From UHGV virus genome UHGV-0284664: a stretch of DNA of 28,290 bases; one strand, 5' to 3'. Each line of letters begins with the position of its first letter. The first letter of the stretch is position 1. Source of the DNA: a virus. Positions 9,001 to 12,000 of the stretch are shown one piece after another. Position numbers: made by a program.

Positions 9001-12000
9001 AGCAGAGCAATAAAACCTGGTCCCTGATGCATCCGGTGGATGACGCAGTCTCCCTGCTGACACGGGGTGGCAGACTGAGCTGTAAGTTTCGACTGTCAGG
9101 CGCACTGACCAACAACCAGTTCGGTCTGGGAATTTATCTGTATACCGATGTAGCGTTACCTGACGTCGTGGCGATGACCGGGACTGGTAACCCGTTCCTG
9201 ATGTCGTTCTTCACCCAGACCACAGACGGCAAACTGAATCTGATGCATCACAGGAAAGCAGGAAACACAAAGTTGGGCGAGTTCGGGAATTACAGTAACG
9301 ACTGGCAGACGCTGGAGCTGGTGTTCACCGCCGGCAGTGCCACGGTTACTCCGAAACTGAATGGAGTGGCTGGCCCGGCATTCCAGGTCATAAAAGACAG
9401 TCTGACACTGGGGCTGAATGCGCTGACGCTGACGGATATTACCAAAAATGCAGCGTATGGCGTTGAGATAGAAAGTCTGGTGCTGGAGATAAATGCACCA
9501 GCATCATCATAAAAAGTGAGCCAGTCAAATGGAAGGTATCGTTAAACTCACCGGTAGTGTCAGTGGGTCGTCTGAGATGCCTGCATGAGTTATCAGAGCC
9601 ATCAGTACTTAACTGGTGGCTTTTTTTATTGTTGTCAGCTTCCGGATAACGGGAGATGGGGTATGTACCAGATGGAAAAAATCACAACAGGTGTGTCATA
9701 CACCACGTCAGCGGTGGGAACGGGCTACTGGTTCCTGCAGTTGCTGGACAGGGTTTCCCCGTCTCAGTGGGCGGCAATAGGCGTGCTGGGGAGTCTGCTG
9801 TTTGGGCTGCTGACATATCTGACTAACCTGTATTTCAAAATCAGAGAGGACCGTCGTAAGGCGGCACGGGGAGAGTAATTCAATGACTCAAAACTATGAA
9901 CTGATTGTGAAAGGGATCCGCAATTTTGAGAATAAAGTTACGGTAACTTTAGCGTTACGGGACAAAAAACGCTTTGACGGTGAAATTTTTGACCTGGACA
10001 TCTCGCTGGACCGTGTTGAAGGTGCCGCGCTGGAGTTTTATGAGGCAGCAGCCAGAAGGAGCATCAGACAGGTCTTCCTGGATGTTGCTGCCGGGTTATG
10101 TGAAGGGGATGAGCAGTCGCCGGAAAAGCGCCCCGTAATTTTAGAGGCGCAGAATGTATGGATAACCTACAAAGGAAAGCTACCGGGAATAATTACTGGT
10201 TCTCTGAAGACTCCTCCGGAATCACAACCTTAAGTCACTGACCGGAACAGATAAACCTGTCCGTGGGCAGAAACCGATAAATCCTGATAAATATCCATGA
10301 ACACCAAAATCAAATACGGCCTGTCGGCTGCCGTTCTGGCGCTGATTGCCGCTGGTGCGCCTGCGCCTGACATTCTCGACCAGTTTCTGGATGAAAAGGA
10401 AGGTAACCACACCACGGCATACCGTGATGGCGCGGGTATCTGGACCATCTGCCGCGGTGCCATCCTGGTGGATGGCAAACCTGTCGTTCCGGGCATGAAG
10501 TTGTCGAAGGAAAAATGCGACCGGGTTAACGCCATTGAGCGTGATAAGGCGCTGGCATGGGTGGAGAAAAACATCAGAGTGCCATTGAGTGAACCCCAGA
10601 AAGCGGGGATCGCGTCATTCTGTCCGTACAACATTGGCCCCGGTAAGTGTTTTCCGTCGACGTTTTATAAACGAATTAATGCAGGTGATCGCAGGGGAGC
10701 GTGTGAGGCGATTCGCTGGTGGATTAAGGACGGTGGCAGGGACTGCCGTATTCGCTCAAATAACTGTTACGGTCAGGTATCCCGTCGTGACCAGGAGAGC
10801 GCGCTGGCGTGCTGGGGAATCGACAGATAAGCAGAATATTTTGCTAATAAATGACGTTGGTCAAGGCGGACGGATAACACGAAATCCTGCGAACTGGCAA
10901 AATGTAAGTGAATAAAAGTAAAAACCCCGTTTGTTGGCAGCAAGCGGGGTTTTGTTTTTATGGCAGTAAGCTATGGGAGGCTGCCTTGATTGATTTTAGC
11001 AAACTGATTAGGGAGTTGCGACTCATGATTAGTCAATTACCAAACTGGAAATTTTTGCTGGTCTGGAGCATCCCTTTTTTATGGGTAGTATCCCAGTTAA
11101 TTGTGGCAATTAAGGGGTAGCTATGTCAGACAAACTCATAACGCCGGCAAAGGTCCTGTGTGTGATTGTCGGTATTTCATTTTCACTAATGCTGGTTGCT
11201 CTTTTTCTGTCCCTCGCCTGGGTGATGTTGTCTTCGTCGGGGCTGCTGGGGTGACAGTGACTGATGACATCAGCAGAGCGCTGGCTTTTGCTATTAAGTG
11301 GGTGGCTGTTGGTATTGCTGTGTCTCCGATGCTGTATGGGCTGGCAAAACTGGTCATTGCGCTGAAATCGTGAACTTTAAAAAGATGAGTGCTGAACTTA
11401 TTCGGGCAATGGCATTTGCCATTCGTATTGTGGCCATTGCTGTTCTGGTCTGGGCAATCCGTTGGTGGTGATATGAACCGTGTTCTGTGTGTGGTGATTA
11501 TTGTCCTGCTGGTAGCCTGTGGTGTGCTTAGTCTGGGGCTGAATCATTACCGCGATAACGCCATCACCTACAAAGCGCAGCGCGATAAAAAAGTCAGTGA
11601 GCTGAAACTGGCGAATGCCACTATTACTGACATGCAGCAGCGCCAGCGAGATGTCGCTGCGCTTGATGCCAGATACACGAAGGAATTAGCCGATGCGAGA
11701 GCTGAAAATGAAACTCTGCGCGCTGATGTTGCCGCTGGTCGTAAGCGCCTGCGGGTCAACGCCACCTGCCCCGGTACCGTGCGTGAAGCCACCGGCACCT
11801 CCAGCGTGGATAATGCAACCGGCCCCCGACTGGCAGACACCGCTGAACGGGATTATTTCATCCTCAGAGAACGGTTGATGACAATGCAGAAGCAGTTGGA
11901 AGGGGCGCAGGAATATATCCGCACTCAGTGCACTAAGCTGGCTTTTTATTATCCGGAGGATACATGAAGAAATTACGGGTAACCGTAGAACCTTTTCAGG

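What the first reader, a model, noticed from the sequence alone, without database searches (positions are those of the whole stretch)
9883..10233. Unassigned 116-aa gene wedged between holin and endolysin
Seen in sequence: an ORF with a strong SD starts 5 nt after the holin stop and ends 63 nt before the endolysin start. The protein is soluble, charged, and has no motif I recognise. Established knowledge: in phage-21-type cassettes S and R are normally adjacent, though some K-12 cryptic prophages have an unnamed gene in this slot. Inference: a lysis-timing accessory protein or an unrelated moron co-expressed at lysis.
Basis: partly seen in the sequence, partly recalled or inferred. Interest (0 to 1): 0.45.

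Follow-up and report, generated by a model that had tools for sequence, protein, structure and literature searches.

The report
YdfR-family prophage gene beside the holin
The gene between the holin and the endolysin is an ordinary copy of ydfR (DUF1327), a prophage gene found in about 80% of E. coli genomes; its function is unproven, and it behaves like a passenger gene that may act on the host enzyme RNase E rather than as part of the lysis machinery.

Summary
The ORF is real. It runs 9883..10233 (+) and encodes 116 aa. It starts 4 nt after the class II (S21-type) holin stop and ends 63 nt before a lysozyme with a hydrophobic, SAR-like N-terminus.

It is not unassigned. It hits Pfam DUF1327 at E=7e-43, and RefSeq calls a 99.8%-identical locus 'YdfR family protein'. 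The N-domain DNA occurs in 4348 of 5426 complete E. coli genomes. K-12 Qin has ydfR in the same slot.

The protein is modular:
- Residues 1-72 form an acidic beta-beta-beta-alpha domain, modelled at pLDDT 87. This is the only part conserved across the family, and it stands alone in distant members.
- Residues 73-116 are one of several interchangeable tails.

dN/dS is about 0.2-0.4, so it is a real protein. No fold, defence-system or fused-domain match assigns a function.

Four observations argue against a dedicated lysis timer:
- DLP12 essD and rrrD abut with nothing between them.
- Distant members sit among tail genes.
- YdfR alleles reassort freely against holin alleles.
- Morons split this cassette elsewhere.

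The only functional lead is a 2026 paper. In it, K-12 YdfR residues 1-72 (81-82% identical to this protein) bind the catalytic half of RNase E, and YdfR co-purifies with RNA.

Verdict: an already known family, and a late-expressed moron-type accessory gene. Action on RNase E or host RNA is plausible but unproven.

The parts
9883..10233 (+). ydfR-family gene (DUF1327), 116 aa. This is the finding itself.
   Evidence: ORF list. Pfam PF07041 E=7.4e-43. PHROG 406 E=4e-68. A 99.8%-identical RefSeq locus is annotated 'YdfR family protein' WP_097497272.1. dN/dS 0.15-0.45.
9883..10098 (+). Conserved N-terminal domain, residues 1-72. Acidic, with a beta-beta-beta-alpha fold. It is the only part conserved across the family, and it corresponds to the K-12 YdfR fragment reported to bind RNase E.
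   Evidence: 81% identity to K-12 YdfR over residues 1-74. AF2 model pLDDT 86.6, strands 5-14, 18-27 and 34-43, helix 50-71. Distant members are stand-alone 72-76 aa proteins. RNase E binding reported in PMC13232886.
10099..10230 (+). Exchangeable C-terminal module, residues 73-116 (...EKRPVILEAQNVWITYKGKLPGIITGSLKTPPESQP). It is unrelated to the K-12 YdfR tail.
   Evidence: Homology to K-12 stops at residue 74. At least five tail types occur after the same N-domain. P0156 carries the same tail behind a different N-part. AF2 pLDDT is below 50 here. dN/dS 0.3-0.56.
9870..9873 (+). Shine-Dalgarno core GGAG, 9 nt upstream of the ATG and inside the last holin codons.
   Evidence: Read directly from the sequence.
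9663..9878 (+). Class II (phage-21-type) holin, 71 aa, with two possible starts (Met1 and Met4: MYQMEK...).
   Evidence: Pfam PF04971 E=9e-33. PHROG holin families.
10234..10296 (+). 63-nt spacer between ydfR and the lysozyme. I see no obvious SD for the lysozyme.
   Evidence: Sequence. In K-12 Qin, ydfR and rrrQ overlap by 4 nt instead.
10297..10830 (+). Lysozyme-type endolysin with a hydrophobic, SAR-like N-terminus (YGLSAAVLALIAAGAPAP).
   Evidence: Pfam PF00959 E=1.3e-23. PHROG 7 endolysin. Sequence.
9595..9623 (+). Terminator-like hairpin upstream of the holin. Reading through it would need Q antitermination, which implies late-operon expression.
   Evidence: Terminator scan. No + strand promoter-like site lies between it and ydfR. 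Q antiterminator at 3936-4757.
11473..11967 (+). Rz spanin, with Rz1 embedded at 11693-11878. It is separated from the lysozyme by a 640-nt insert.
   Evidence: Pfam PF03245 E=7e-51. ORFs. RefSeq annotation of the twin locus.

Best explanation
This is a genuine member of the YdfR/DUF1327 family. I rate membership at about 0.97. It is best read as a moron-type accessory gene in the Q-dependent late operon, placed directly behind the class II holin, and not as a component of the lysis machinery. I rate that reading at about 0.7.

The working part is the N-terminal 72-residue acidic beta-beta-beta-alpha domain. I take it to be a small protein-binding module. Residues 73-116 are one of several interchangeable C-terminal modules.

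By homology with K-12 YdfR (81% identical over residues 1-74), the most likely molecular activity is binding to the catalytic N-terminal half of host RNase E, to RNA bound to it, or to both. That would adjust RNA turnover while the late genes are expressed. I rate this step at about 0.3.

Shown here: the ORF, family membership, purifying selection, modularity, the fold class, the distribution, and the uncoupling from holin alleles. Taken from a paper on the K-12 homologue: RNase E binding and RNA co-purification. Inferred: that this protein does the same, and that this benefits the phage.
For: Family and reality of the gene:
- Pfam DUF1327 at 145 bits and PHROG 406.
- RefSeq names the twin locus 'YdfR family protein'.
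- dN/dS is 0.15-0.45.

Late co-expression:
- The spacer after the holin stop is 4 nt.
- A terminator-like hairpin lies upstream, with no + strand promoter-like site after it.
- The Q antiterminator gene lies upstream.

Not tied to lysis:
- DLP12 essD and rrrD abut.
- The N-domain DNA is found at 8592 places and the class II holin at 13418 places in complete E. coli genomes.
- Distant stand-alone members lie between gpM-like and tail L genes, between the tail chaperone and the tape measure, after a gpI-like gene, or upstream of holins.
- Holin and YdfR alleles reassort.
- Other morons interrupt such cassettes, for example Ant between R and Rz in YYZ-2008 and a 640-nt insert here.

Protein binder:
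- 21 of 23 family N-domains have pI 4.3-5.6, and none has a transmembrane segment.
- The N-domain diverges faster (40-100% identity) than the holin (75-100%) or the lysozyme (88-100%).

RNase E (PMC13232886):
- Residues 1-72 of K-12 YdfR were picked three times in a two-hybrid screen.
- The 1-72 clone gave signal above background with T18 fusions of Rng, full-length Rne and Rne1-597. Full-length YdfR gave signal only with Rne1-597.
- Strep-YdfR co-purifies Rne1-598-FLAG and DNase-resistant nucleic acid.
Against: - The RNase E data are for the K-12 protein, not this one.
- Full-length T25-YdfR was positive only with Rne1-597, not with Rne1-498, Rne1-415, full-length Rne or Rng.
- The co-purification was not nuclease-treated, so RNA bridging is possible.
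- YdfR overproduction changed only a few transcripts.
- No homology to T4 Srd (hhalign probability 0.2%).
- The gene sits 3-4 nt after the holin stop in all nine E. coli-type loci examined. That invariance is also what a holin-linked function would predict.
Confidence: 0.45

Rival explanations
1. Lysis-timing accessory. On this reading it is a cytoplasmic regulator of the pinholin or of the SAR-type endolysin, comparable in logic to the cytoplasmic T4 antiholin cofactor RIII. It would be made in fixed ratio with the holin through translational coupling.
For: - It sits 3-4 nt behind the holin stop in the window, in K-12 Qin and in seven phages.
- The SD lies within the invariant holin C-terminal codons.
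- In Qin and Tritos it overlaps the lysozyme start.
- The holin cytoplasmic tail KI(R/K)ED(R/K)RKAARGE is basic and nearly invariant, and YdfR is acidic.
Against: - DLP12 has essD and rrrD with nothing between them. From established knowledge, phage 21 S/R/Rz is sufficient for lysis.
- Only about two thirds as many ydfR places as class II holin places are found.
- Distant members lie among tail genes, far from any holin.
- YdfR alleles do not track holin or lysozyme alleles.
- No Pfam or PHROG lysis family matches.
Confidence: 0.15
2. Surviving half of a two-gene moron cassette, for example a defence, exclusion or toxin-antidote pair. The ancestral unit would be the 72-aa domain gene plus a small convergent gene. 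In this window the partner has been lost and replaced by a C-terminal tail.
For: - In 10 of about 13 contexts of divergent members, a convergent ORF follows within roughly 10-50 nt. It is 83-101 aa, or 186 aa in one case.
- These ORFs fall in PHROG 25324 (Evi, L006, L008, L016), PHROG 10490 (L007, L012, L019), PHROG 18578 (L021) and PHROG 2572 (PhiR12_2).
- The cassettes occupy classic moron slots.
Against: - The two main partner families are not detectably related to each other (hhalign probability 0.2%).
- No partner has a significant Pfam hit. The only PADLOC hits are marginal, with a best E of 7.8e-4 for the L016 partner against the candidate family PDC-M39B.
- A convergent orientation is unusual for toxin-antitoxin pairs.
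- The window, K-12 Qin, mEp460 and YYZ-2008 have no partner yet keep the gene under purifying selection.
- L017 and L018 also lack a partner.
Confidence: 0.15
3. Direct RNA-binding protein. On this reading the RNase E association is indirect, through shared RNA.
For: - Strep-YdfR eluates held about 330 ng/ul of DNase-resistant nucleic acid, against 11 ng/ul or less for the controls. The authors suggest RNA binding.
Against: - The family is acidic, with pI 4.3-5.6 in 21 of 23 N-domains.
- The authors could not exclude a contaminating protein.
Confidence: 0.1
4. Functionless ORF kept only by physical linkage to the holin and lysozyme genes.
For: - The 3' half is highly mosaic, and many database entries are frameshifted or fused.
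- Two allele pairs show dN/dS above 1: YYZ-2008 against PhiR12_2 and against Stx1_499.
Against: - dN/dS is 0.15-0.45 in nearly all other informative comparisons.
- The domain persists down to about 25% identity as an intact 72-76 aa ORF in unrelated genomic slots.
- AF2 gives a confident fold.
Confidence: 0.05

Closest known systems
E. coli K-12 YdfR (b1555, P76160), Qin cryptic prophage; Pfam DUF1327 / RefSeq 'YdfR family protein'
   Same: It occupies the same slot, essQ - ydfR - rrrQ - rzpQ, with the same 4-nt spacing after the holin. Residues 1-74 are 81% identical. It belongs to the same Pfam family.
   Different: The C-terminal tails are unrelated: 29 residues in K-12 (predicted helical according to the 2026 paper) against 42 residues here. 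K-12 ydfR overlaps the lysozyme start, whereas here there is a 63-nt gap.
T4 Srd (binds the N-terminal half of RNase E and stimulates host mRNA decay; Qi et al. 2015, cited in PMC13232886)
   Same: It is a phage-encoded protein reported to bind the N-terminal half of RNase E, which is the same target region reported for K-12 YdfR.
   Different: No sequence relationship (hhalign probability 0.2%). Srd is 248 aa. An effect of YdfR on RNase E activity has not been shown.
phiKZ gp37 Dip (PDB 5FT0; inhibitor of the RNA degradosome, PMC4980113)
   Same: It is a phage protein that targets RNase E.
Lambdoid late-region morons (for example bor, lom, stx, and Ant between R and Rz)
   Same: It is a small accessory gene inserted in the late operon, dispensable for the neighbouring machinery, mosaic and reassorting.
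   Different: Classic morons often carry their own promoter and terminator. No + strand promoter-like site was found for this gene.
T4 RIII (small cytoplasmic antiholin cofactor)
   Same: It is a small soluble cytoplasmic protein encoded by a phage. This gives a possible precedent for regulating a holin from the cytoplasm.
   Different: No homology was detected in any library. This resemblance comes from my own knowledge and was not tested further.

Membership tests
YdfR / DUF1327 (PF07041) | Scores above the Pfam gathering threshold over the whole domain | tested here: met
   145.1 bits against a cut-off of 25, residues 1-112 on profile positions 1-92 of 93. Also PHROG 406 at E=4e-68.
YdfR / DUF1327 (PF07041) | N-terminal ~72-aa domain alignable with the name-giving K-12 YdfR, including the conserved G..LE.YE.EA motif | tested here: met
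   81% identity over residues 1-74. Y53 is invariant and E54 nearly invariant across 23 divergent members.
YdfR / DUF1327 (PF07041) | Position directly downstream of a class II holin in lambdoid Escherichia prophages | tested here: met
   Window, K-12 Qin, mEp460, PhiR12_2_star, Evi, YYZ-2008, 2H10, Stx1_499 and Tritos.
Holin/antiholin or other lysis-regulator families | Homology to a family annotated with a lysis function | tested here: not met
   Pfam, PHROGs and NCBIfam give only unknown-function families for this protein.
Holin/antiholin or other lysis-regulator families | Family-wide association with lysis cassettes | tested here: not met
   Distant members lie between tail genes. The class II holin cassette of DLP12 lacks the gene.
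Holin/antiholin or other lysis-regulator families | Effect on lysis timing, or physical contact with the holin or endolysin | not testable with these tools
   This needs a deletion in an inducible prophage and interaction assays. Allele reassortment gives no support for it but does not exclude it.
Phage RNase E modulators (T4 Srd) | Sequence homology to Srd | tested here: not met
   hhalign of the domain profile A2 against T4 Srd: probability 0.2%.
Phage RNase E modulators (phiKZ Dip) | Dip-like fold | tested here: not met
RNase E N-terminal-half binders (functional class) | Physical binding to Rne residues 1-598 | not testable with these tools
   Reported for K-12 YdfR by two-hybrid and co-purification (PMC13232886).
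dsRBD (double-stranded RNA-binding domain) | alpha-beta-beta-beta-alpha fold with basic RNA-contacting surfaces | tested here: not met
RNase H-like superfamily | Five-stranded sheet with catalytic acidic residues | tested here: not met
Known anti-phage defence systems (PADLOC) | Match to a defence-system protein model | tested here: not met
   No PADLOC family at E<=0.1 for the window protein.

The most novel reading that the evidence does not exclude
The 72-residue YdfR domain is a new class of small acidic phage protein. It would dock on the catalytic half of RNase E, possibly in its RNA-binding groove, and retune RNA decay during late gene expression or under stress in lysogens. The interchangeable C-terminal modules, and in distant relatives the convergent neighbour genes, would supply target or regulatory specificity. 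If so, about 80% of E. coli genomes carry one to ten copies of a prophage-encoded RNase E modulator.
Probability: 0.2. Interest if true: 0.6.

Novelty: already known. Interest (0 to 1): 0.25.

Why it matters
As a sequence feature this is routine. The gene belongs to a catalogued family, has a RefSeq name and is present in most E. coli genomes.

What remains open is its function. ydfR is one of the most widespread E. coli prophage genes still without a demonstrated role, and it sits in one of the best studied gene cassettes in phage biology.

If the RNase E lead holds, temperate lambdoid phages, including Stx-type phages, would join T4, T7 and phiKZ in manipulating host RNA decay. The many resident copies could then affect RNA turnover in lysogens.

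Three observations made here narrow the hypotheses that a bench test needs to cover: the stand-alone 72-aa core, the swappable tails, and the independence from holin alleles.

Tried and rejected
- **Solved structures by sequence.** Nothing better than E=0.36.
- **Homology to T4 Srd.** None.
- **PADLOC defence models.** No match for the window protein.
- **Fused domains in the long forms (170-287 aa).** No known Pfam domain.
- **A partner gene on the minus strand in the window.** The 134-aa antisense ORF at 10230-10634 lies inside the lysozyme gene. It hits PHROG 22558, which is probably an artefact of lysozyme conservation, so I do not count it as a partner.
- **Common ancestry of the convergent partners PHROG 25324 and PHROG 10490.** hhalign probability 0.2%.
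- **Known RNA in the region.** No Rfam family between 9500 and 12500.
- **Locus search with divergent alignments.** P0192 alone found nothing in the species-representative genomes.
- **Other literature.** It gave only incidental mentions: a 3-fold rise in streptomycin MIC on overexpression, a sigma-S run-off array hit, and an O55:H7 prophage note.
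Full report
**Observation.** The holin stop codon TAA is at 9876-9878, so four bases separate it from the ATG. A GGAG core at 9870-9873 lies nine bases upstream, inside the last holin codons. The ORF ends 63 bases before the ATG of the lysozyme at 10297. The product is soluble and acidic, with pI 5.2 and no hydrophobic segment. It is under purifying selection. Nei-Gojobori dN/dS against eight homologues is 0.15-0.45 for codons 1-72 and 0.3-0.56 for the tail. It is therefore a real gene and not a chance ORF.

**Identity.** The gene is not unassigned.
- It matches Pfam DUF1327 (PF07041) at E=7.4e-43, 145 bits against a cut-off of 25, and PHROG 406.
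- A 99.8%-identical stretch in E. coli strain fS10a is annotated by RefSeq as class II holin / YdfR family protein (WP_097497272.1) / lysozyme.
- The name-giving gene is ydfR (b1555) of the K-12 cryptic prophage Qin. It occupies the same slot, essQ - ydfR - rrrQ - rzpQ, with the same 4-nt spacing.
- DNA of the N-terminal domain is found in 4348 of 5426 complete E. coli genomes, at 8592 places and up to ten per genome. The class II holin is found at 13418 places.
- Among one genome for each of 185,579 species, close relatives occur only in Escherichia and Shigella. Two further hits are in MAGs and look like contamination.
- An exhaustive profile search of 1.84 billion representative proteins gave only 89 hits, so the family is narrow.

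**Context.** The window is a lambdoid prophage. In order it carries:
- DUF968 and RusA genes, and the Q antiterminator at 3936-4757;
- a DNA methylase, then three tRNAs and two STnc100 elements;
- a NanS-p-like SASA esterase at 7656-9512 and the S21-type holin at 9663-9878, which has two possible starts, Met1 and Met4;
- ydfR, then a lysozyme with a hydrophobic SAR-like N-terminus;
- a 640-nt insert with small ORFs, then Rz/Rz1 and the Nu1/gpA terminase.

A terminator-like hairpin at 9595-9623 precedes the holin, and no + strand promoter-like site follows it. The holin, ydfR and the lysozyme are therefore expected to be expressed together from the Q-dependent late transcript. This is an inference.

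**Anatomy of the protein.** Homology with K-12 YdfR is 81% over residues 1-74 and then stops completely.
- In the databases the same N-domain is followed by at least five different C-terminal continuations: the 114-116 aa form seen here, the K-12 tail, a 104 aa form, and 176/183 aa and 263-287 aa forms.
- One protein (P0156) carries the tail seen here behind an unrelated N-terminal part.
- Distant members are stand-alone proteins of 72-76 aa that consist of the N-domain only. Two (P0187, P0190) carry it twice.
- With an alignment of these divergent members, AlphaFold2 gives a confident model of residues 1-75. Its pLDDT is 86.6 and pTM 0.71, with three antiparallel strands (5-14, 18-27, 34-43) and one long helix (50-71).
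- The tail is modelled with pLDDT below 50.
- The conserved sequence signature is G47..L50-E-x-Y53-E54-x-E-A at the start of the helix.
- 21 of 23 family N-domains have pI 4.3-5.6.

**What the fold and libraries say.** They say little.
- BFVD gives nothing at E<=1e-3.
- There is no PDB relative by sequence and no PADLOC model.
- The long forms carry no known fused domain.

**Is it part of the lysis machinery?** Four tests say probably not.
1. The cassette exists without it. In DLP12, essD and rrrD abut, and there are about one and a half times as many class II holin places as ydfR places.
2. The family is not tied to lysis genes.
   - Stand-alone members lie between a gpM-like gene and tail L (L016).
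   - They lie just before tail L (L017 and L018).
   - They lie between the tail chaperone and the tape measure (L019 and L020).
   - One lies after a gpI-like gene (L012).
   - Others lie upstream of, not inside, lysis cassettes (L008 and L010).
3. Alleles reassort.
   - The window and PhiR12_2_star have holins 99% identical but YdfR N-domains 51% identical.
   - The window and mEp460 have holins 80% identical but YdfR N-domains 99% identical.
   - Overall the YdfR N-domain ranges over 40-100% identity, the holin over 75-100% and the lysozyme over 88-100%.
4. These cassettes are known landing sites for passengers. Ant lies between R and Rz in YYZ-2008, and the window has its own insert between R and Rz.

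Against this, the gene sits 3-4 nt after the holin stop in all nine E. coli-type loci I looked at. The holin cytoplasmic tail is basic and nearly invariant. A cytoplasmic holin regulator is therefore not excluded.

**Functional lead.** A 2026 paper screened E. coli two-hybrid libraries for partners of the N-terminal half of RNase E (PMC13232886).
- Residues 1-72 of K-12 YdfR were recovered three times, with RNase G as bait.
- The 1-72 clone gave signal above background with T18 fusions of Rng, full-length Rne and Rne1-597, with higher activities for the two Rne constructs.
- Full-length YdfR gave signal only with Rne1-597. It gave none with Rne1-498, Rne1-415, full-length Rne or Rng.
- Strep-YdfR co-purified FLAG-tagged Rne1-598.
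- The eluate contained about 330 ng/ul of DNase-resistant nucleic acid, against 11 ng/ul or less for the controls.
- The YdfR co-purification was not repeated after nuclease treatment.
- Overproduction changed few transcripts.
- The authors call YdfR a possible RNA-binding protein.

Because the window protein shares 81% identity over exactly this fragment, the same interaction is likely here. The acidic nature of the family fits a protein that binds a nucleic-acid-binding enzyme better than it fits a direct RNA binder. That is an inference. Phage proteins that target RNase E are an established kind: T4 Srd, T7 gp0.7 and phiKZ Dip (PMC13232886, PMC4980113). YdfR is not homologous to Srd and does not resemble Dip.

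**A second pattern.** In 10 of about 13 contexts of divergent members, a small convergent ORF follows the gene within a few tens of bases. These ORFs fall in:
- PHROG 25324 in phage Evi, L006, L008 and L016;
- PHROG 10490 in L007, L012 and L019;
- PHROG 18578 in L021;
- PHROG 2572 in PhiR12_2_star.

The two main partner families are not detectably related. None has a significant Pfam hit, and the only PADLOC hits are marginal, with a best E of 7.8e-4 for the L016 partner against PDC-M39B. This may mark a two-gene cassette, or it may simply be a recombination hot spot at the 3' side of the gene. The window has no such partner. The only minus-strand ORF nearby lies inside the lysozyme gene.

**Verdict.**
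- The 'unassigned' label is wrong at the family level.
- The entity is already known and extremely common. Its function is still unproven.
- My best mechanistic estimate is a late-expressed, small acidic host-protein binder acting on RNase E or RNA turnover, at about 0.3. Rivals are a lysis-timing role (0.15), a remnant of a two-gene cassette (0.15) and direct RNA binding (0.1).
- Interest is low to moderate. The finding would not surprise a specialist, but the gene is a reasonable target for a simple deletion and pull-down experiment.

Noticed in passing
window 10831-11472: The lysozyme and Rz are separated by about 640 nt. The insert holds a strong terminator-like hairpin (10921-10953) and small hydrophobic ORFs at 11123-11254, 11218-11373 and 11385-11471. 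These match unknown-function PHROGs 4906, 3246/1115/4493 and 4493/3246. RefSeq annotates them as hypothetical proteins in the twin locus. So the lysis cassette is interrupted a second time.
   Followed up: partly
L004 2244-2540 (-), L016 696-1001 (-), L019 5244-5519 (-), L012 1879-2160 (-), L007 335-616 (-), L021 768-1328 (-), L003 2458-2718 (-): Divergent DUF1327 genes are usually followed by a small convergent ORF of unknown function (PHROG 25324, 10490, 18578 or 2572). The two main partner families are not detectably homologous. This could be a two-gene cassette or a moron hot spot.
   Followed up: partly
window 6431-7433: Three tRNA genes (Met-CAT, which RefSeq calls Ile in the twin locus, then Arg-TCG and Arg-TCT) and two copies of the sRNA family STnc100 (6756-6946, 7224-7433) lie downstream of Q and the methylase. 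In my recollection this is the position where Stx phages carry the toxin genes. No stx-like ORF was noted here.
   Followed up: no
window 7656-9512: A 618-aa esterase with DUF1737, SASA and DUF6645 domains lies just upstream of the holin. It resembles the NanS-p type 9-O-acetyl sialic acid esterase of Stx prophages. A terminator-like hairpin (9595-9623) lies between it and the holin.
   Followed up: partly
window 10230-10634 (-): A 134-aa antisense ORF inside the lysozyme gene matches PHROG 22558 at E=2e-66. This family probably consists of spurious antisense calls kept similar by conservation of the lysozyme.
   Followed up: partly
L005 2501-2845 vs L003 2001-2216 and L014 1501-1716: Within the Stx-phage allele class of the YdfR N-domain, YYZ-2008 differs from PhiR12_2_star and Stx1_499 by about 15 non-synonymous but only 2-3.5 synonymous changes (dN/dS 1.2-2.3). 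Other informative comparisons give about 0.25. The numbers are too small to call positive selection.
   Followed up: no
L027 and L029: YdfR genes 81% and 71% identical to the window protein occur in MAGs labelled Veillonella parvula and Bacillota bacterium. This is most likely Escherichia contigs mis-binned into those MAGs.
   Followed up: no
window 183-1811: A 542-aa subtilase (Peptidase_S8) gene sits at the left end of the window, upstream of the DUF968/RusA/Q block. That is an unusual passenger in the early-right region of a lambdoid prophage.
   Followed up: no
window 10280-10296: The lysozyme ATG at 10297 has no recognisable Shine-Dalgarno sequence in the preceding 17 nt (cctgataaatatcc). 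In K-12 Qin and phage Tritos the lysozyme start overlaps the ydfR stop, which suggests translational coupling that has been lost here.
   Followed up: no
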